Shown in pieces: positions 34,489 through 42,756 of a stretch of DNA of 64,000 nucleotides. A model generated the notes under the pieces. That model saw only the letters and a list, made by a program, of their open reading frames with translations, did no database searches and was not told the origin of the DNA. The stretch is from Candidatus Moraniibacteriota bacterium (GTDB taxonomy: Bacteria > Patescibacteriota > Minisyncoccia > Moranbacterales > UBA1568). The stretch lies in assembly GCA_016699425.1 (NCBI GenBank), contig CP064975.1:451212-515211 (forward strand), read 5' to 3'. Each line of letters starts with the position of its first letter. The first letter of the stretch is position 1. Position numbers and translations under genes: made by a program.

Positions 34489-34559
34489 ATGCCTACAGTG
34501 TAGCACTGCCGGTCTTTTGATAAAAAGGCCTTTTTATCAAACATTCGCCTCCTTCATAT

Positions 34560-34574
34560 TCGCATGCGTGATGT
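34560..34574. promoter_or_regulatory. shared 15-bp motif ATTCGCATGCGTGAT (copy 1) upstream of gene 33979-34488
   Basis: Identical 15-mer at 35107-35121. Contains the 8-bp palindrome CGCATGCG. Confidence 0.4.
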
Positions 34575-34678
34575 AAATGATGATGAATTTCATAGAAGTA
34601 TTCGATAAAGAAAAAGTGGGTGGCGGAATCAACGACTCCACCACCCTGATCTTATAGGCGGTGCTAACCCCACCGACT

Positions 34679-35142: not shown

Positions 35143-35904
35143 TCAATGGAGGGACCTCAAGTAACGAGCAAGTCCGTCTTCTTTCACAGATCCGATGATC
35201 TCATCGGAGACATTTTTTAATTCTGGTATCGCATTTCCCATAGCGACCCTATACCCGACAGCATTGAAGAGATGCATATCGTTGTGACCGTCCCCGATAC
35301 CGATAGCATCATCCTTACTCGATCCAAGAATACCCAATAGCTGCGCCACCGCTTGTTCCTTGGTCGCCTCGCTGTTTACGATATGCAAGTCTTTAAGACC
35401 TGGTTTCTGCGATACGACCATCACGCAGGTAATCCCTGCTATGCTGGAAAGTTTTCCGAAAAGCTCCGCGGCCAAGGTATCTGGAACAAATACCTGCTCG
35501 AGGAAATAGACTGGGTCAGGAGTTGAAAAATCTTTCGGAAACACCCCACCGTGGAAATAGTCCTCCTCCGTCCCGTCATTGAAGAGCAGTTTCCACTCAG
35601 GATATTCACAAAAAATTGAGACCACTTGGACGAGGGCTGATGGATCAATATTTTTCTGCCACAAAATGTTTCCGGTGACCGGATTACAAATCTGCGTTCC
35701 GGCAGAGATAATACAGGGATCCGTCAACCCGAGTGCTTGGAGCACTGGCTTTGCGAACGACCACACTCGACCCGTCGCCGAACTCAGAAAATATCTCTCC
35801 TGAGCAGCCCGTATCGCCTGTTTCAGCGATTCGGTCGGGAGTTTCTGAACGGGCGAATCAATGGCCGTACCATCAAGATCAAAAATTATGGCTTTTTTCT
35901 TCAT
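35143..35904 (-). CDS. HAD-superfamily hydrolase (Cof-type phosphatase)
   Basis: Motif I IIFDLDGT. Motif IV GDGHND. Confidence 0.7.
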   Translation of the reverse strand: MKKKAIIFDLDGTAIDSPVQKLPTESLKQAIRAAQERYFLSSATGRVWSFAKPVLQALGLTDPCIISAGTQICNPVTGNILWQKNIDPSALVQVVSIFCEYPEWKLLFNDGTEEDYFHGGVFPKDFSTPDPVYFLEQVFVPDTLAAELFGKLSSIAGITCVMVVSQKPGLKDLHIVNSEATKEQAVAQLLGILGSSKDDAIGIGDGHNDMHLFNAVGYRVAMGNAIPELKNVSDEIIGSVKEDGLARYLRSLH

Positions 35905-35998
35905 AATGTCTTCCACGGGCTTGTATCCTCCCTCTTTAAAGCCTTATCATTCGCCTTGATCTGAATCTGCTGTTGTGGCTGGGTCATAAAAATAATTT

Positions 35999-37036
35999 TT
36001 ATAGACTAAAGAATGACTCTACGCCATTGGTGCTAGCGCGCATAAAATCGGTGAATCCTTTTTTATATAGTTCTATTTTGATTCCCGGAAATTTTTCAGC
36101 AGTGAGATTAGCATTTGGAGATACAATCCCAAAAGGAATTTCGCTTTTCTGAAAATTTTTATTAATTAAATCAACCAGGTAATCATCTCCCGCCTTCCAT
36201 CCAATTATTAAAATTCCGTCAATTTTTTCAAAGGAATCGGTCAATAACTTTACATGTCGTTCTGGGCATACAAAATTTTTCTTATCAGTAATAGGAATTG
36301 CTAGTGAAGGCACGGAGTAACGATGTGTTGTTGTAGTCCCAATTTTAAGAATCTTACGATAATGTCCATCGATATATATCTCCTCATCTAATTCAGTGAT
36401 CTTTAAATCATTGTGAATCCGCTCTGCATGCCTATAAAGGTATTCGTCATTTTTTGGTGCGAGATGTGAATCACTTTCATCGACGATCTGGATCCAATTG
36501 TACGCTCCGTGAATCTTAATAACTTTCAAGTGTGCATCACTAATGTAATCATCAACCCTTTGAAAGCCATTGGAATTGTTATAAAAGCTGAGATTCTTCT
36601 CGAAAAGTAAGTCATAATTAAAATTTACTACAATGGCGTTGCCACCGCAGTAGTCACCCAATCGATCTATAAGTCCACGATAATTGTTGACAGGGCTAAA
36701 ATAGTTATTACTTATCTCCCTAAATAGATCCCTTAAGTACAGTCTTAGGGCAATAAGTTGCTGATATCTCTCCTTATTCCGTGGCGCATATTCGTTTTGA
36801 ATTTTAGTTAAAAATTTCTCAAAATCTCCAATTGCTTCGTCTGTCATGCTTGAAGCAATACCAGAAACTATATTATTTGTTGCGATAAACTGCTTAAATC
36901 TTTCATGAAAGAGATCCTTCGTAAGTGGTGGTTTCAATCTAAAATCAATGCCACCGGCTACACTCAAGGAATTAAACCTATCCTCAACATAGTCGAATGC
37001 GGCGCCTGCTCCCAAAATAATTAGTGGATATTTCAT
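35999..37036 (-). CDS. standalone SIR2-like (SIR2_2/DUF4917-type) protein; candidate NADase defence effector
   Basis: Motifs LIILGAGAAFD, VVNFNYDLLFE, IKIHGAYNW and ILIIGWKAGDD appear in the order and spacing of the SIR2_2 family. GC is clearly lower (~38%) than both flanks. Confidence 0.6.
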   Translation of the reverse strand: MKYPLIILGAGAAFDYVEDRFNSLSVAGGIDFRLKPPLTKDLFHERFKQFIATNNIVSGIASSMTDEAIGDFEKFLTKIQNEYAPRNKERYQQLIALRLYLRDLFREISNNYFSPVNNYRGLIDRLGDYCGGNAIVVNFNYDLLFEKNLSFYNNSNGFQRVDDYISDAHLKVIKIHGAYNWIQIVDESDSHLAPKNDEYLYRHAERIHNDLKITELDEEIYIDGHYRKILKIGTTTTHRYSVPSLAIPITDKKNFVCPERHVKLLTDSFEKIDGILIIGWKAGDDYLVDLINKNFQKSEIPFGIVSPNANLTAEKFPGIKIELYKKGFTDFMRASTNGVESFFSL

Positions 37037-37042
37037 AAATTA

Positions 37043-37069
37043 AGCGGGGCAAAATGCCCCGCTTTTTTA
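37043..37069. terminator. bidirectional rho-independent terminator
   Basis: AGCGGGGC-aaaat-GCCCCGCT followed by T6 on the plus strand. It sits between the membrane-protein gene stop (37073) and the SIR2-like start (37036). Confidence 0.6.
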
Positions 37070-37072
37070 CTC

Positions 37073-38059
37073 TTACTTCTTTTCTTCCTTTGGTGCTTCT
37101 TCGGCTGGCTTCTCCCCGTCTGAAGCCGAGGCAGGCTCTACTTCAACATCTTTCGGCAAGGCTGACGAATCGGCAGGAGTGATCTTCACCGGGGCGGCGA
37201 ATGCTTCTGCTTTGGGGAAATTCGTGAGTGCCACGAGGAACAAGACGAGGGTGAAGAGGAGTGGGACATGGGCAGACGTGGCCGTCAGGAGAAAGCAGAA
37301 GGCGAGCGGAGCCGGGAGGAGATAGAGCGTCGAGAGATAGGCCCGACCATAGGTGAGTTGCTGTTTGCGAATGCTCGCGGCGATCCAGACGACAAGGGCG
37401 CCGAAGAGTGCATACAGAAGATAGGCGATCCAGACGCCCAGGTACATGAGAGCCGGCATGAAGAACATGAGCACCAAGAGCCCCGTCCGAGCCACCGCGA
37501 AGCCGCGCTCCACCCACTCTGCGAACCGGGCCGGGGTCACGATGAGACGGTCATTGAACCCAGCTTCCTTCAGATTGAAGATGCGTGTTTCGCCGCGATC
37601 TGGATTATGAAAGCCAACTTCCTGTGCCCCGAGGATAGCGACCGTATCGAGCTCAGCAAAGTCAGACTGATTGATCGGTTGTTTCGTGTCGATCACGAGG
37701 AGATTTGCTGGTAGCTCTTCTCTGACGCAGCGGCGCATGTCACACTCAGCCATTGCGCGCCAGGCTTCGGGGAGTGGAATCACTACTGGTCCTGCTTGAT
37801 TCGTGGTGACTGTATCGCGATTCACGGTGAGTGTCAGATCATCTGGATAGAGTCCAGCGACGATGCTCTTTTGCACTTGCCACTCTCCCGAACGGATTGA
37901 CTGGATGACCGTCACCGCACTCGGGAGCATGGAAAGCACAGCCATCACAACGAAACAAAGTACCGTCAGCGAGTAAAAGTGCAGACTCTGACCGAAAGTG
38001 AAGGTCTGGGCACGGAAGAAATTCGGCCGATAGAAGATGTCCTTGATACGCTCGATCAT
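37073..38059 (-). CDS. multi-pass membrane protein of unknown function with acidic C-terminal tail
   Basis: Several TM helices. The C-terminus [13 protein letters not shown] is shared with the DnaK tail at both DNA and protein level. Confidence 0.45.
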   Translation of the reverse strand: MIERIKDIFYRPNFFRAQTFTFGQSLHFYSLTVLCFVVMAVLSMLPSAVTVIQSIRSGEWQVQKSIVAGLYPDDLTLTVNRDTVTTNQAGPVVIPLPEAWRAMAECDMRRCVREELPANLLVIDTKQPINQSDFAELDTVAILGAQEVGFHNPDRGETRIFNLKEAGFNDRLIVTPARFAEWVERGFAVARTGLLVLMFFMPALMYLGVWIAYLLYALFGALVVWIAASIRKQQLTYGRAYLSTLYLLPAPLAFCFLLTATSAHVPLLFTLVLFLVALTNFPKAEAFAAPVKITPADSSALPKDVEVEPASASDGEKPAEEAPKEEKK

Positions 38060-38113
38060 AGATTTGTGATTATGAATAGAAGCAGGGCCGAGACCCTGCT
38101 TCTATTCTACTCC

Positions 38114-40099
38114 TTACTTCCCATCTGCCTTCGCATCCGAGGCAGGCTTTCCTTCATCTTTCGGCTTCTCCCCGTCTGAAGCCGAGGTGGACTCTACTTC
38201 GGCGTCTTTGGCCTGGCCTGCATCTGCCGAAGCGTCAGAAGCATTGCCAGCAGGGCTTCCTTGAGCTGCAGAAGCAGCTTGGGCCTCTTGTGCAGCCTTA
38301 TACAGCTTCTCGCCGATCTTTTGGGCGGCCTGGGACAGTTCCTCAGTTGCCTTCTTGATGGCCTCCACATCCTGGCTATCTTTCAGGTTTTTCAAGGCTT
38401 CCAGCTTTTCCAAGACGGGTTTGCGCTCATCATCGGTTAGCTTGTCGCCCGCGTCCTTCATGGCTTTTTCGGTCGAGTAGGACAGCGTGTCTGCCATATT
38501 TTTCACTTCGATCAGCTCTTTCTTTTTCTTGTCTTCTTCGGCGTGGAGCTCGGCGTCCTTCTTCATCTTTTCGATCTCGTCCTTGGAGAGACCAGTACTG
38601 GACTCGATGCGGATAGACTGGGTCTTGCCACTCGCCTTGTCTTTGGCCGTCACAGACAAGATACCCGACGCGTCGATGTCAAAGCTGACTTCAATCTGCG
38701 GGATGCCACGCGGTGCTGGTGGGATACCGTCGAGGACGAAGCGGCCGAGCGATTTGTTGTCGGTGGCCATCTCACGCTCACCCTGGAGGACATGAATTTC
38801 GACTTGCGGTTGATTATCGACCGCGGTGGAGAAGGTCTGGCTCCGTGTTACGGGGACGGTGGTATTGCGATCGATGAGGGGGGTGCGGACACCGCCGAGT
38901 GTCTCGATACCGAACGTGAGTGGCGTCACATCGAGGAGGAGTACATCTTTCACGCTCCCCTCGAGCACGCCGCCCTGGATGGCAGCACCGATGGCGACGA
39001 CTTCATCCGGGTTCACGGTGATGTTCGGCTTCTTGCCGAAGAACTTCTCAACCGTCGCGAGAACAAGCGGCATACGGGTCATCCCACCGACGAGCACGAT
39101 TTCATTGATATCACCGACCGAGAGCTTGGCATCGGCGAGGGCTTTCTTTACAGGCTCAAGTGTCCCTTCAATCAAGTCGTGAACGAGTTCCTCGAGTTTG
39201 GCCCGGGTGAGTTTGATGACGAGGTGCTTCGGACCGTCGGCACCGCTGGTGATGAACGGCTGATTGATTTCGGTTTCTTGCGCGGTAGACAATTCGATCT
39301 TGGCTTTCTCAGCGGCTTCCTTGATGCGCTGGAGGGCAAGCGGGTCTTTGGACAAGTCGATACCCTCCTGCTTCCGGAACTCATCGAGGATCCAGTGGAT
39401 CACTCGCTGATCGAAGTCATCACCACCGAGATGGGTATCACCATTGGTCGACTTTACTTCAACCGTATCAACGGTATCGGTTGAGACTTCGAGGATGGAA
39501 ATATCGAAGGTCCCGCCCCCGAGATCATAGACGGCGATCTTTTCGTCTTTCTTCTTGTTGAAACCATAGGCGAGAGCTGCGGCGGTCGGCTCATTGATGA
39601 TACGACGGACATTGAAGCCAGCAATCTCACCCGCCTCCTTGGTCGCTTTGCGCTGCGAGTCATCAAAGTAGGCCGGGACGGTGATGACAGCATCGGTGAT
39701 TTTCTCACCGAGTTTCTCCTCCGCATCGGCTTTGAGCTTGGCCAGAACCATCGCGGAGAGCTCCTGCGGGCTGTACTCCTTACCGCCCATGACGATCTTC
39801 ACGCCCTCGCCGGCCTGCACGATCTTGTAGGGAAGCGTCTTCATGTCGCGCTTCACTTCGTCGTCATTGAAGTGACGGCCGATGAGGCGCTTCACGGAGA
39901 ATAGGGTGTTCTCGGGATTGGTGACAGACTGGCGCTTGGCGAGGAGTCCGACGAGGCGCTCCCCGGTCTTCGAGATCGCGACCATACTGGGTGTGGTGCG
40001 ATTGCCTTCCTTGTTTTCGATGACACTGGGGGTGCCACCTTCGACGAACGCCATCGCCGAGTTAGTGGTCCCGAGGTCGATGCCGAGTATCTTTGCCAT
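38114..40099 (-). CDS. dnaK: molecular chaperone DnaK (Hsp70)
   Basis: Hsp70 signatures ([26 protein letters not shown]). 661 aa. Confidence 0.95.
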
Positions 40100-40225
40100 A
40101 TGTTTGTACTTAGATAAGTTACGTTGATTACTTACAATTTGTCATTTCGAGTGAGTCCGCGAATCGAGAAATCTTGCTTTTTTGGATTGAGATCCTTCGA
40201 CTCGAAGACTCGCTCAGGATGACAG

Positions 40226-41173
40226 TCACGAGGTGACCGTCACTTTTGCGGGACGGACGAGTTTATCTTTTATCTTGTAGCCTTTCTGGACAACCTTCAC
40301 TATCAAGTGACGACCTACAACCGACGACTCCTGCTCCTGATCACCATTGTCTTTCTCGTCGTGGGTAGTAAGTGGTTGGTTGTTGGTCATTGAGAGCGCT
40401 TCGTGCTGGGTGGGGTCGAACGCGTCGCCTGGTTTCACTTCGAGAGGCGTGACACCGTAATTGGCCAAAACATCCTCAAACTGCTTCTCGATATACGTAA
40501 TACCCGTGACCCAGGGACTGCCCGCCGCATCGGCTGGGACATGCTCGGTCGCGGCGTGGAAATTATCGAGCACTGGGATGAGTTCGGTGACGATTTGGCT
40601 GGTCAGGTGACCATAAAGCTCCTTCTCATCGTTCTTCACCCGTTTCTTGTAGTTCTCGAAGTCGGCGAGGATGCGGAGCACATCACTCGCTCCTTCCTGT
40701 GCCTTGATCCTCATGAGCGCAGCCGCAACCGCATTCTTCAACCACTCCTTGCATTCCGAGTCATTCTCTATCGCTTCGAGGTCTCGCCATTCAAATCGAT
40801 CGTGCTCATCACTGAGTTTCGGTTCACCGCCCGTGTAAAGTGCGAGAGAGAACAGAACTGTCCGGTCGATTACCCGTCCATCGCGAGTGACCTGCATCAG
40901 GCAGCCCGTGACGACTTCCTTCAGTTCATAGGAGACATCACCGATTTCTTCCTGCAACTCACGCCCGATAGCTTCTGCCGGATCTTCACCGGCATGCACC
41001 CGCCCACCCGGCAGATCCCATGGACCATACTTCTTGTAAAATTCAAACTCAGGGTGAGCATCCCGGACCAGAAGGAATTTCTTGGTCATCGCATCGTAGA
41101 GCACCACTTTCTGGCTCAGCTGGAACATGGCGTGATGCTGATGCTGCAAATGGTCATGTTTTTTCTCAGGCAT
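40226..41173 (-). CDS. grpE: NUDIX-domain / GrpE fusion protein (nucleotide exchange factor GrpE with N-terminal Nudix domain)
   Basis: N-terminal Nudix box GGRVHAGEDPAEAIGRELQEEIG. C-terminal GrpE region (ADFENYKKRVKNDEKE...VLDNFHAA...FDPTQHEAL...). Confidence 0.75.
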   Translation of the reverse strand: MPEKKHDHLQHQHHAMFQLSQKVVLYDAMTKKFLLVRDAHPEFEFYKKYGPWDLPGGRVHAGEDPAEAIGRELQEEIGDVSYELKEVVTGCLMQVTRDGRVIDRTVLFSLALYTGGEPKLSDEHDRFEWRDLEAIENDSECKEWLKNAVAAALMRIKAQEGASDVLRILADFENYKKRVKNDEKELYGHLTSQIVTELIPVLDNFHAATEHVPADAAGSPWVTGITYIEKQFEDVLANYGVTPLEVKPGDAFDPTQHEALSMTNNQPLTTHDEKDNGDQEQESSVVGRHLIVKVVQKGYKIKDKLVRPAKVTVTS

Positions 41174-41210
41174 AGATTTTTTGATTAGGATGTTCGGGTG
41201 ATGGTACTCT

Positions 41211-41774
41211 TCACTGCTTCAAATAATTTCTGTCGTTCTTCACGCGCTTCTTGTAATTCTCGAAGTCTGCCGTGAGACGTTGGACATCACTCAGATATCC
41301 TTGTTCTATGAGACGAGTTTGTGCTTTTAGGAAGGCCTCACGCAGAACGGGATATATTTTTTCATCGCTCCAAATCTCTTCAGGTGTCTTCCAAATATAC
41401 TCATTATGTTCTTCGCTCAGTTCAATTTCTCCAGTCTTGTAAAGACCGAGATGTATCACGGAAATTCCCGGGCGAGATGCCCACTGGCTGCGAACCACAA
41501 AAACTGGGCCAAGAAGTTCGTACTGGATATCACCAGCCTCCTCTTCTACCTCTCGGAGTAAAGCTTCTTCAGGTGATTCTTCTCCTTCCATGTGACCACC
41601 GAGCAATACCCAAGGGTCATACTCTGGATGCTTTTTAAAGAAATCAGATTCCGGTTCTTTGACCAGAAGAAATTTCTTAGTTTGCGGATTCCATAGGATT
41701 AATTTCTGAGAAACCGTGAAGAGTCCCCAGGTGAGATCTTCAGTTTTTTTCACAATTTCATTGTGTTTAGACAT
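41211..41774 (-). CDS. NUDIX-domain protein ending in a truncated GrpE N-terminal segment (partial duplicate of the adjacent fusion gene)
   Basis: Nudix box LLGGHMEGEESPEEALLREVEEEAG. The C-terminus LTADFENYKKRVKNDRNYLKQ matches the GrpE start of the downstream gene. The DNA repeats 40630-40665. Confidence 0.55.
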   Translation of the reverse strand: MSKHNEIVKKTEDLTWGLFTVSQKLILWNPQTKKFLLVKEPESDFFKKHPEYDPWVLLGGHMEGEESPEEALLREVEEEAGDIQYELLGPVFVVRSQWASRPGISVIHLGLYKTGEIELSEEHNEYIWKTPEEIWSDEKIYPVLREAFLKAQTRLIEQGYLSDVQRLTADFENYKKRVKNDRNYLKQ

Positions 41775-41952
41775 AGATGATGAGAGTTAGGATAAGCGAT
41801 AATGTTCTTTTTTGTTGGTCATAGGATTTTTTATTACGAGGTGCGGGTCATGGCGCTTTTCGCAGCTTCGAAGAGTTTCTGACGTTCTGCTTCGGTGAGC
41901 GGTTTATCTGTCTCATCTATTTCCGATTTGTCATCTGCTGTTCTGTCAGGGT

Positions 41953-42708
41953 TTACCATACTGGTGCCTGCGTGATGACGATGATGACGAGCGAGGAACC
42001 GAGGAGGCGGCGCATATGCTCGATGAGGGACTTGTTCTTGGCGTACTCCATGCGCTTGGGCCCGATGATCGCGAGGATGCCACGTTCGCCGTGTGCGTCC
42101 CGATACGGTGAGACGACCATCGCACAGTTTCCGATACCCGCGACCGGGTTTTCCCCGCCGATATAGATGCGCGTCTCGCCGTCTTTTAGTCCCGCCATCA
42201 GGGTCTCGATATTCTCATCGAGGGTGTCGAGCGTCTCGACGAGGCGGCAGAGCTCGTCCATCTCCTGGAATTCCGGATTCTCCATGAGGGACTTCATCCC
42301 GAAATCGTACATCTCGTCCTTGCCGACGATACCGGAGATGCCGAGATTGCCGGAGAGGACCGAGAGGAGCCGGGCCGTGGTCCGGACGGTGCGATTGTGC
42401 TTGGCCTGGAGGATGAGGAATTCCTCTTGGAGTTTCAGCTGGTCCTTCTTGGACAGCGGCTTATCCCGCATCATCTCTTCGACATAGTAGCGATACCCTG
42501 CGTCCGTCGGGATGCGGCCAGCCGACGTATGCGGCTGATAGAGGTACCCCGCCTCCTCGAGTGCGAGCATGTCGCTCCTGAGGGTCGCTGAACTCACCGA
42601 AAAATGGTGCTGCTCCAAAAGTGCCTCGGACCCGACGGGCAGGGCAGTCTTCGTATACAGCTCGACCACAGCGGCGAGCACTTCTTTTTGGCGGTCATTT
42701 GTATCCAT
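41953..42708 (-). CDS. hrcA: heat-inducible transcription repressor HrcA
   Basis: N-terminal winged-helix (QKEVLAAVVELYTKTALPVGSEAL). HrcA-family body. A CIRCE element lies immediately upstream. Confidence 0.8.
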   Translation of the reverse strand: MDTNDRQKEVLAAVVELYTKTALPVGSEALLEQHHFSVSSATLRSDMLALEEAGYLYQPHTSAGRIPTDAGYRYYVEEMMRDKPLSKKDQLKLQEEFLILQAKHNRTVRTTARLLSVLSGNLGISGIVGKDEMYDFGMKSLMENPEFQEMDELCRLVETLDTLDENIETLMAGLKDGETRIYIGGENPVAGIGNCAMVVSPYRDAHGERGILAIIGPKRMEYAKNKSLIEHMRRLLGSSLVIIVITQAPVW

Positions 42709-42729
42709 GACTCTAGTATAAAAAATGCT

Positions 42730-42756
42730 TTAGCACTCGTCAAGTGAGAGTGCTAA
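42730..42756. promoter_or_regulatory. CIRCE operator (TTAGCACTC-N9-GAGTGCTAA), perfect consensus
   Basis: TTAGCACTCgtcaagtgaGAGTGCTAA sits 22 nt upstream of the hrcA start. Confidence 0.85.

What the first reader, a model, noticed from the sequence alone, without database searches (positions are those of the whole stretch)
35999..37069. Solitary low-GC SIR2-like (SIR2_2/DUF4917-type) gene: candidate single-gene NAD-depleting antiphage system
The 345-aa protein shows the SIR2_2 hallmark motifs in the correct order and spacing: GAG (LIILGAGAAFD), NYD-x2-E (NFNYDLLFE), HG (KIHGAYNW), and the C-terminal IIGWKAGDD block. GC content is far below both neighbours. The gene is insulated by a perfect bidirectional hairpin terminator at 37043-37069.

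SIR2-like domains of this family act as NADases in Thoeris (ThsA), DSR and SIR2-HerA systems. Here no partner such as TIR, HerA, Argonaute or a SLOG domain is visible. This could therefore be a minimal or novel standalone variant, or the effector of a system whose sensor lies elsewhere.
Basis: partly seen in the sequence, partly recalled or inferred. Interest (0 to 1): 0.7.

Follow-up and report, generated by a model that had tools for sequence, protein, structure and literature searches.

The report
Solitary short SIR2-like gene in hotspot
A horizontally acquired, single-domain SIR2-fold gene sits alone in a cargo-swapping hotspot at the end of the heat-shock (dnaK) operon of a Moraniibacteriota (CPR) genome; it is most likely a stand-alone NAD-degrading anti-phage effector of an uncharacterised but large family, which is plausible and useful to know but not very surprising.

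Summary
The 345-aa ORF (35999-37036, minus strand), its motifs, its low GC (0.36 against 0.48-0.56) and the perfect hairpin are all real.

The family is large (2128 clusters at 50% identity), almost all single-domain proteins of about 340 aa. It has no conserved neighbour in 151 loci. Close relatives often sit in defence contexts; six lie between hsdS and hsdR of type I R-M operons, the position PrrC occupies.

Three genomes with 91-99% identical DnaK lack the gene, and two hold other low-GC cargo at that position. The hairpin is a copy of the dnaK terminator at the gene's 5' end, not an insulator.

Verdict: a probable stand-alone SIR2 ("SIRim") NADase defence gene, with AbiH as the precedent. 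It is a new member of a known kind. Function is inferred, not shown.

The parts
35999..37036 (-). SIR2-like (SIR2_2/'SIRim'-type) ORF, 345 aa, GC 0.36; identical to NCBI 'hypothetical protein IPJ68_02430 [Candidatus Moraniibacteriota]'
   Evidence: family and fold evidence
36998..37012 (-). Codons for G9-A10-G11-A12-A13 (family consensus GAGAS), the predicted NAD phosphate-binding loop after strand beta-1
   Evidence: invariant G9 A10 G11 A12 in 126 sequences; aligns with LGAGAS of the E. coli SIR2 of SIR2-HerA
36611..36619 (-). Codons for N140-Y141-D142, predicted catalytic Asn and Asp
   Evidence: invariant or nearly invariant; align with N163 and D165 of PsSIR2 8w9l (alignment; residues named in PMC11472057); codons read directly
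36506..36517 (-). Codons for K174-I-H176-G177, predicted catalytic His
   Evidence: invariant K174, H176, G177; H176 aligns with H212 of PsSIR2
37042..37064 (.). Perfect 10-bp/3-nt-loop GC-rich hairpin, 5 nt upstream of the SIR2 ATG and 8 nt after the DUF1189 stop; a copy of the dnaK-operon intrinsic terminator and the left edge of the cargo slot
   Evidence: the same stem follows dnaK directly in sister locus L086; not a family-wide feature
35903..35989 (-). 5' remnant of a DUF3467 gene (MTQPQQQIQIKAND...), starting 9 nt after the SIR2 stop; the right edge of the cargo slot
   Evidence: 43 nt 95% identical to the start of the intact DUF3467 gene of L168; translation compared; L086 has SIR2 followed by an intact DUF3467-like ORF
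37073..38059 (-). DUF1189 membrane protein gene (native, GC 0.56), the conserved left flank; its last ~90 nt duplicate the dnaK 3' tail
38114..42756 (-). CIRCE (42730-42756) - hrcA - NUDIX - NUDIX::GrpE - dnaK heat-shock operon, upstream on the same strand; the only evident source of transcription into the SIR2 gene
   Evidence: no promoter-like site between the hairpin and the ATG
35143..35916 (-). Cof-type HAD phosphatase gene (GC 0.48), also absent at this position in the closest relatives; co-resident cargo, not a conserved partner
   Evidence: absent next to SIR2 in L086

Best explanation
The gene encodes a stand-alone, single-domain SIR2-fold enzyme of the immune ('SIRim', SIR2_2) branch. 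It most likely acts as an NAD+ glycohydrolase that is kept inactive in healthy cells and depletes NAD+ when a phage or other invader is sensed, stopping growth (abortive infection).

Shown here:
- The SIR2 Rossmann fold.
- Conservation of the GAGAS loop and of Asn, Asp and His aligned with the catalytic N163, D165 and H212 of PsSIR2.
- Absence of the Cys4 zinc module that classical sirtuins use to bind acyl-lysine.
- Absence of any conserved partner gene.
- Recurrent embedding of close relatives in restriction-modification and other defence loci.
- Horizontal acquisition into a variable hotspot.

Inferred:
- NADase chemistry.
- Auto-inhibition by the alpha-helical small domain (about residues 19-130), as in PsSIR2.
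- Activation by a phage cue, possibly through oligomerisation.

In this genome the ORF fills a tight slot between the terminator of the CIRCE/HrcA-controlled dnaK-DUF1189 operon and a DUF3467 stub. It has no room for its own promoter, so it is probably made at low level by terminator read-through.
For: Fold and family:
- AF2 model pLDDT 91.5, pTM 0.91.
- Family profile against PDB: the only hits at E <= 0.05 are SIR2 chains of SIR2-HerA systems, best E 3.6e-6.
- PF13289 hit in 104 of 126 members; PADLOC SIR2 models hit in 42 of 51.
- Catalytic alignment. Only 2 Cys in the protein (sequence).

Stand-alone:
- 2128 clusters at 50% identity, nearly all 320-380 aa.
- Largest neighbour cluster is in 11 of 151 loci.
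- In the window only 36 nt lie upstream and 9 nt downstream before the flanking genes.

Defence context:
- hsdM-hsdS-SIR2-hsdR with gaps of -38 to +2 nt in 6 loci.
- Type IIG R-M, AriA/PtuA-like ATPase, LmuB/SMC-like ATPase, PDC-S56, TIR/PDC-S35 or a Shedu-containing patch next to others.

Mobility:
- Gene GC is below flank GC in 51 of 135 loci by more than 0.05 and never above by that much; the window differs by -0.16.
- Three genomes with 91-99% identical DnaK and the same hrcA-dnaK-DUF1189 synteny lack it; a fourth, with 92% identical DnaK but no DUF1189 downstream, also lacks it.

Precedent: AbiH, a one-gene Abi with a predicted SIR2 fold.
Against: - No experiment: NADase activity, toxicity and phage protection are all inferred.
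- The query alone is below the Pfam and PADLOC decision thresholds.
- The window is not a defence island; the gene sits at the end of a housekeeping heat-shock operon.
- Several relatives also sit in housekeeping contexts: after ftsZ, after LepA, next to dnaK in 5 other loci.
- The nearest solved relatives need HerA for activation, and no sensor domain is evident in a 345-aa protein.
- The hairpin next to the start codon and the lack of a promoter could mean the gene is poorly expressed or silent.
Confidence: 0.55

Rival explanations
1. It is an effector that depends on a partner encoded elsewhere. The partner could be a type I R-M complex that it guards, in the way PrrC guards EcoprrI, or a HerA-like ATPase acting in trans. 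The window copy would then be an orphan that works only with that distant partner, or not at all.
For: Six close relatives occupy exactly the PrrC position between hsdS and hsdR, with overlapping or 0-2 nt junctions that suggest co-translation. PrrC is described as almost exclusively embedded in type I R-M systems. The nearest structural relatives are activated by HerA.
Against: Most of the 151 loci have no R-M or HerA gene nearby. No type I R-M or HerA match was found in the 64-kb window. The sister copy L086 is also solitary, after dnaK. The rest of the 1.2-Mb genome could not be inspected.
Confidence: 0.17
2. It is a non-immune NAD-dependent enzyme, either a protein deacylase or a SirTM-like ADP-ribosyltransferase. 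It would have a regulatory or stress-related role tied to the heat-shock operon.
Against: There is no Cys4 zinc module and no PF02146 hit. The closest fold and sequence matches are immune SIR2s. The four dnaK-operon relatives examined lack the gene, and all keep NUDIX::GrpE, so the link to NUDIX and dnaK is positional. GC is foreign. dnaK-adjacent copies are scattered on the tree apart from the WIN/L086 pair. By a rough estimate of mine, dnaK proximity is only marginally more frequent than chance once all housekeeping families are considered.
Confidence: 0.12
3. It is a passenger or decaying gene: a selfish toxin-like cargo, or a silent remnant in a recombination hotspot, with no current function for the host.
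For: The slot is surrounded by gene stubs (DUF3467 and CutA1 remnants) and duplicated operon ends. There is no promoter-like site, and a stable hairpin (-18.8 kcal/mol) sits 5 nt before the ATG. The cargo differs among the three dnaK-DUF1189 relatives examined.
Against: The ORF is intact over 345 codons, with every invariant family residue preserved. The sister locus L086 keeps an intact orthologue at 45% identity in the same position, which argues for long-term maintenance under selection.
Confidence: 0.12

Closest known systems
SIR2 subunit of SIR2-HerA (Nezha) systems, e.g. Paenibacillus PsSIR2 (PDB 8w9l) and E. coli Sir2 (8j4u, 8su9)
   Different: No HerA gene next to it in the window or in 151 related loci. 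It is 345 aa against 380-415 aa, with about 15% identity. Whether it forms the dodecameric ring, and how it is activated without HerA, is unknown.
AbiH of Lactococcus lactis (Pfam PF14253), a one-gene abortive-infection protein with a predicted SIR2/'SIRim' fold
   Same: Single gene, single SIR2-like domain, about 346 aa, carried on mobile or variable DNA. It is the conceptual precedent for stand-alone SIR2 defence.
   Different: The query does not hit PF14253 even at E <= 10. Only 12 of 126 family members hit it weakly (best E 1e-4), against 104 of 126 for SIR2_2. The host range also differs: CPR, Acidobacteriota and Actinomycetota rather than lactic acid bacteria. AbiH's own mechanism is also unproven.
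PrrC anticodon nuclease embedded in the type I R-M locus prr (hsdM-hsdS-prrC-hsdR)
   Same: Six close relatives sit in the identical position between hsdS and hsdR, tightly coupled. This suggests a latent suicide effector that guards the R-M enzyme. The prr gene order is from my own knowledge; the statement that PrrC is embedded in type I R-M systems is.
   Different: The fold and chemistry are unrelated (SIR2/NAD against HEPN/tRNA). The window copy has no R-M neighbour. Any physical interaction with Hsd proteins is untested.
ThsA (Thoeris), DSR1/DSR2, Avs5 and SIR2-APAZ/pAgo SIR2 effectors
   Different: All of those carry a fused or adjacent sensor (SLOG plus ThsB-TIR, a large C-terminal sensor, STAND NTPase, or pAgo). 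This protein is the SIR2 domain only.

Membership tests
SIR2 superfamily / Pfam SIR2_2 (PF13289) | Significant match to the PF13289 profile | tested here: inconclusive
   The query alone scores E 0.0086, 16.6 bits, against a gathering cutoff of 24.5. At family level 35 of 51 and 104 of 126 homologues match (best E 2.3e-9).
SIR2 superfamily / Pfam SIR2_2 (PF13289) | SIR2 Rossmann fold with an inserted small domain | tested here: met
SIR2 superfamily / Pfam SIR2_2 (PF13289) | Conserved NAD-binding GAG loop and catalytic Asn/Asp/His | tested here: met
   G9 A10 G11 A12, N140 (at least 90% conserved), D142 and H176 are invariant or nearly invariant in 126 sequences. They align with N163, D165 and H212 of PsSIR2.
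Immune 'SIRim' branch (as opposed to classical sirtuins) | Absence of the Cys4 zinc-binding module | tested here: met
   Only two Cys (C129, C257) and no CxxC pairs in the query (sequence). The criterion is from bioRxiv 10.1101/2024.09.18.613514.
Immune 'SIRim' branch (as opposed to classical sirtuins) | Enrichment of defence genes in the neighbourhood | tested here: inconclusive
   At least 12 of about 40 close-subfamily loci have R-M or other defence genes directly adjacent. No formal background comparison was run, and the window itself is not a defence island.
Immune 'SIRim' branch (as opposed to classical sirtuins) | NAD+ glycohydrolase activity | not testable with these tools
   Needs biochemistry.
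SIR2-HerA (Nezha) system | Adjacent HerA (FtsK/HerA-type ATPase) gene in the same operon | tested here: not met
   No HerA match in the window-wide PADLOC scan. No recurrent ATPase neighbour among 151 loci. The flanks in the window are DUF1189 and HAD.
Thoeris (ThsA/ThsB) | SLOG (or Macro) domain fused to SIR2, and an adjacent TIR ThsB | tested here: not met
   The 345 aa are fully taken up by the SIR2 fold. There is no TIR neighbour in the window. Only one related locus has a CAP12/PCTIR-type TIR gene upstream.
DSR1/DSR2 | A protein of about 1000 aa with an N-terminal SIR2 and a large C-terminal sensor domain | tested here: not met
   Protein length is 345 aa and the family is 320-380 aa. The DSR size is from my own knowledge.
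AbiH (PF14253) | Match to the AbiH profile | tested here: not met
   No hit for the query at E <= 10. 12 of 126 members hit weakly, best E 1e-4.
DUF4917 | Match to the DUF4917 profile | tested here: not met
   Not among the hits for the query or for any of 126 members.
Classical sirtuin deacylases (PF02146, CobB-like) | PF02146 match and a zinc ribbon | tested here: not met

The most novel reading that the evidence does not exclude
This family could be a SIR2 counterpart of PrrC: a latent NADase that docks on, or is co-translated with, type I restriction enzymes (hsdM-hsdS-SIR2-hsdR) and fires when a phage disables restriction. Copies such as the one in this window would have escaped the R-M operon and become autonomous one-gene systems. 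Here the gene is wired to the end of the HrcA/CIRCE heat-shock operon, so terminator read-through during infection stress would raise its dose. This would be a compact backup immunity suited to the tiny genomes of CPR bacteria.
Probability: 0.15. Interest if true: 0.65.

Novelty: new member of a known kind. Interest (0 to 1): 0.4.

Why it matters
CPR/Patescibacteria have very small genomes and few recognised defence systems. The aquifer defensome study suggests some of that gap reflects systems current tools cannot detect.

This gene belongs to a large family (more than 2000 clusters at 50% identity) of about 340-aa SIR2-only proteins. The window protein is annotated 'hypothetical', scores below the Pfam cutoff, and would probably be missed by PADLOC-type tools, which rely on system rules that include HerA.

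If it is active, it would be one of the smallest NAD-depleting immune modules. It would also be a tractable case for asking how a SIR2 NADase is held in check and triggered without a dedicated sensor or HerA.

The locus further documents a defined cargo-swapping hotspot (operon terminator to DUF3467) in Moraniibacteriota. That hotspot could be mined for other unknown defence genes.

Tried and rejected
1. Single-sequence searches were weak or empty: Pfam, NCBIfam and PDB phmmer. Only family profiles and structure resolved the assignment.
2. The exact-protein contig look-up found nothing on record.
3. The afdb50 fold library was unavailable.
4. No relatives were found in IMG/VR viral contigs, GenBank phages or PLSDB plasmids. 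BFVD gave only viral sirtuin-like deacylases. The gene is therefore not evidently phage- or plasmid-borne.
5. I tested whether a hairpin before the start codon is a family signature. It is not: 17.6% against 16.9% in control genes.
6. I considered arguing for poor translation from the missing Shine-Dalgarno sequence. I rejected this because only 8 of 48 window genes have one.
7. I considered a functional NUDIX-SIR2 link (ADP-ribose handling). I rejected it because NUDIX::GrpE is present in all four relatives examined, none of which has the SIR2 gene.
8. I considered dnaK as a functional partner. dnaK is near the gene in 6 loci, but apart from the WIN/L086 pair these copies are scattered on the tree and the arrangement varies. 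A shared insertion hotspot after the operon terminator explains it better.
9. There are no tRNA genes, Rfam families or meaningful repeats at the borders, so no integrase or att-type mechanism is evident.
10. PADLOC and Pfam gave nothing for the alternative cargo genes.

Full report
**1. What is in the sequence**

The minus strand carries an ATG-initiated ORF at 35999-37036 encoding 345 aa. GC falls to 0.35-0.37 across exactly this ORF. The upstream gene is at 0.56 and the downstream gene at 0.48.

A perfect inverted repeat, with 10-bp arms and a 3-nt loop, lies at 37042-37064. The protein is identical to an NCBI 'hypothetical protein' of a Candidatus Moraniibacteriota MAG on a 1.2-Mb contig. 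The host is therefore a CPR/Patescibacteria bacterium.

**2. Is it SIR2?**

The protein alone gives an equivocal answer:
- PF13289: E 0.0086, below the gathering score.
- PADLOC SIR2 model: E 1.8e-4.
- NCBIfam and PDB by phmmer: nothing.

Family-level evidence is clear:
- 51 homologues and then 126 align end to end.
- G9, A10, G11, A12, E73, Y141, D142, K174, H176, G177, P243, P248 and G279 are invariant. N140, W181, C257, P258, H261 and W280 are nearly invariant.
- 104 of 126 members hit PF13289, 12 of 126 hit AbiH weakly, and none hit DUF4917 or the classical SIR2 family.
- 42 of 51 hit PADLOC SIR2 models.
- A profile of the 126 sequences matches only SIR2 subunits of SIR2-HerA systems in the PDB at E <= 0.05: 8w9l at E 3.6e-6, 8j4u at 1.2e-3, 8yhx_G at 0.053.

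The AlphaFold2 model is confident (pLDDT 91.5, pTM 0.91).
- Foldseek's best matches are E. coli Sir2 of Sir2-HerA (E 1e-7).

In the alignment, N140, D142 and H176 fall on N163, D165 and H212 of PsSIR2. The authors of that structure name these as the putative catalytic residues (PMC11472057).

The protein has only two cysteines, so it lacks the Cys4 zinc module of deacylating sirtuins. Its absence is described as the hallmark of the immune 'SIRim' branch (bioRxiv 10.1101/2024.09.18.613514).

**3. Is it solitary?**

The exhaustive representative search finds 2128 clusters at 50% identity at E <= 1e-3 and 1214 at E <= 1e-10. Almost all are full-length matches of 320-380 aa. A few, such as P0142 and P0181, carry an N-terminal extension of about 95 aa.

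I collected 80 genomic and 80 metagenomic loci plus Pfam-annotated contigs. I then called ORFs and clustered all neighbours. Among 151 non-redundant loci, the most recurrent neighbour cluster occurs in only 11, and at scattered positions. One member was checked and is a large serine recombinase.

In the window there are 36 nt between the upstream stop codon and the ATG, and 9 nt between the stop codon and the next gene stub. A small partner ORF cannot fit. No conserved partner exists.

**4. Context of relatives**

Relatives at 30% identity or more are nearly all from CPR lineages. More distant ones (22-29%) are from Acidobacteriota, Actinomycetota, Chloroflexota, Bathyarchaeia and others.

In six loci of the window's clade (L004, L006, L016, L021, L089, L094) the gene lies between hsdS and hsdR of a type I R-M operon. 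Junctions range from -38 to +2 nt. HsdM, HsdS and HsdR were confirmed by Pfam and PADLOC. This is the position PrrC occupies in the prr locus.

Other copies abut other defence-type genes:
- type IIG R-M enzymes (L002, L023);
- an AriA/PtuA-like ATPase (L015, 2 nt away);
- an SMC/LmuB-like ATPase (L020);
- PDC-S56 (L026);
- a CAP12/PCTIR TIR protein that hits PDC-S35 (L084);
- a patch with resolvase, PLD and Shedu genes (L083).

Still others sit in housekeeping surroundings, for example after ftsZ and after LepA.

The gene is AT-richer than its flanks almost everywhere. In 51 of 135 loci the difference exceeds 0.05, and in none is it GC-richer by that much. In the close subfamily it stays at 0.31-0.42 GC whether the host is at 0.30 or 0.55.

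No relative was found in viral contigs, phage genomes or plasmids.

**5. The window locus**

On the minus strand the gene order is as follows:
- a perfect CIRCE operator (42730-42756)
- hrcA
- NUDIX
- NUDIX::GrpE fusion
- dnaK
- DUF1189 membrane protein
- hairpin
- SIR2-like gene
- DUF3467 stub
- Cof-type HAD
- 113-aa ORF
- terminator
- CutA1 stub
- DM13

A PADLOC scan of all 66 other window ORFs finds no defence system.

Using DnaK as a handle, I retrieved four relatives. Three of them, with 99%, 97% and 91% identical DnaK, keep hrcA-(NUDIX)-NUDIX::GrpE-dnaK-DUF1189 but have other genes after DUF1189:
- L166: a 174-aa protein, then RmlD and HAD_2;
- L167: CutA1 and a 294-aa protein;
- L168: a 224-aa protein, then DUF3467.

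A fourth relative (L169, 92% identical DnaK) has no DUF1189 after dnaK and different downstream genes. It also lacks the SIR2-like gene.

At the DNA level, similarity stops at the hairpin and resumes only in short stubs, then at 34543 (93.6% identity to L167). The 43 nt after the SIR2 stop codon are 95% identical to the start of the L168 DUF3467 gene.

In L168 the architecture is the same: DUF1189 stop, GC-rich hairpin, 6 nt, ATG of a 224-aa cargo gene (GC 0.416 against 0.53 for the locus), 5 nt, DUF3467. L166 carries a low-GC 174-aa gene (GC 0.415) directly after DUF1189.

The sister SIR2 copy (L086, 45% identity) reads dnaK stop, 41 nt containing the same AAGCGGGGC/GCCCCGCTT stem, SIR2, 77 nt, DUF3467.

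The last ~90 nt of the window's DUF1189 gene plus its hairpin duplicate the dnaK 3' tail plus its terminator. The hairpin is therefore a copy of the heat-shock operon terminator and marks the left edge of a cargo slot. It is not an insulator belonging to the SIR2 gene. Hairpins before the start codon are no more frequent in this family than in control genes.

No promoter-like site lies between the hairpin and the ATG. Transcription most plausibly comes from read-through of the operon terminators; this is an inference. The absence of a Shine-Dalgarno sequence is uninformative in this genome.

**6. Mechanism**

Best-supported reading, at confidence about 0.55: a stand-alone SIRim-type NADase acting in abortive infection.

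Shown here:
- the fold;
- the conserved catalytic constellation;
- the lack of a zinc module;
- the lack of a conserved partner;
- frequent defence embedding in relatives;
- horizontal acquisition into a hotspot.

Inferred:
- NAD+ hydrolysis;
- auto-inhibition by the helical small domain (about residues 19-130), by analogy with PsSIR2, whose small domain blocks the NAD pocket until HerA binds;
- activation by an unknown phage cue, possibly with oligomerisation or filament formation, as titles and abstracts listed report for ThsA and Avs5.

Rivals:
- partner in trans, or a PrrC-like guard of type I R-M (about 0.17);
- a non-immune deacylase or ADP-ribosyltransferase tied to the stress operon (about 0.12);
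- a silent or selfish passenger gene (about 0.12).

**7. Comparison and novelty**

The protein works most like, and looks most like, the SIR2 of SIR2-HerA. It fails the defining system feature, an adjacent HerA gene.

It shares the one-gene, one-domain layout with AbiH but does not match the AbiH profile. It is not Thoeris, DSR, Avs5 or pAgo-SIR2, because it has no sensor domain or partner.

Stand-alone SIR2-fold defence is already an accepted category. Eight of the 51 aligned homologues (alignment A1) also touch the PADLOC candidate PDC-S25.

I therefore rate it a new, uncharacterised family-level member of a known kind. Interest is moderate (0.4) because of the CPR host, the PrrC-like embedding of relatives and the well-defined hotspot.

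Noticed in passing
window 40226-41173 (-) and 41211-41774 (-): The GrpE gene is fused to an N-terminal NUDIX domain, and a second, separate NUDIX gene precedes it inside the hrcA-grpE-dnaK operon. The fusion is conserved in all four close relatives examined. The separate NUDIX gene is missing in L167 and L169, and its region has lower GC (about 0.44).
   Followed up: partly
window 42730-42756 and 2308-2334: A perfect CIRCE operator (TTAGCACTC-N9-GAGTGCTAA) lies directly upstream of hrcA. A second CIRCE-like site with 2 mismatches is at 2308-2334, perhaps in front of a groES/groEL-type gene.
   Followed up: partly
window 37042-37160 vs 38080-38200: The 3' end of the DUF1189 gene (encoding ...[13 protein letters not shown]...) plus its hairpin is a near-duplicate of the dnaK 3' end (...[13 protein letters not shown]...) plus the dnaK terminator. 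It looks as if the DUF1189 gene had been inserted with a duplication of the operon end. The sister locus L086 has dnaK followed directly by the hairpin and SIR2.
   Followed up: partly
window 35903-35989 (-) and 34544-34594 (-): There are two gene stubs. One is the first ~14-20 codons of a DUF3467 gene, right after the SIR2 stop codon. The other is the first ~17 codons of a CutA1 gene. Both genes are intact in close relatives (L168, L167), which indicates repeated replacement events in this region.
   Followed up: yes
L168:9039-9713 and L166:5587-6111: Other low-GC ORFs of unknown function occupy the position directly after DUF1189 in close relatives: a 224-aa soluble protein (L168, between the terminator and DUF3467) and a 174-aa probably membrane protein (L166). 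Neither has Pfam or PADLOC hits. They are candidates for other accessory or defence cargo.
   Followed up: partly
L021:7807-8556; L094:4282-5531; L006:9301-9915: Further genes are embedded in the same type I R-M operons as the SIR2-like gene: a NYN-domain protein between hsdM and hsdS (L021), two unknown proteins of 159 and 266 aa (L094), and a 205-aa unknown protein between hsdS and SIR2 (L006).
   Followed up: no
proteins P0142 and P0181 (homologues, not in the window): Rare family members carry a conserved N-terminal extension of about 95 aa in front of the SIR2-like domain. It could be a sensor or targeting module.
   Followed up: no
L017, L069, L008, L050, L086 and the window: dnaK lies within 1-7 genes of the SIR2-like gene in six loci from different CPR lineages, directly adjacent in three. 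Apart from WIN/L086, the SIR2 copies are not each other's closest relatives. This suggests the end of the dnaK operon is a recurrent insertion site in CPR genomes.
   Followed up: partly
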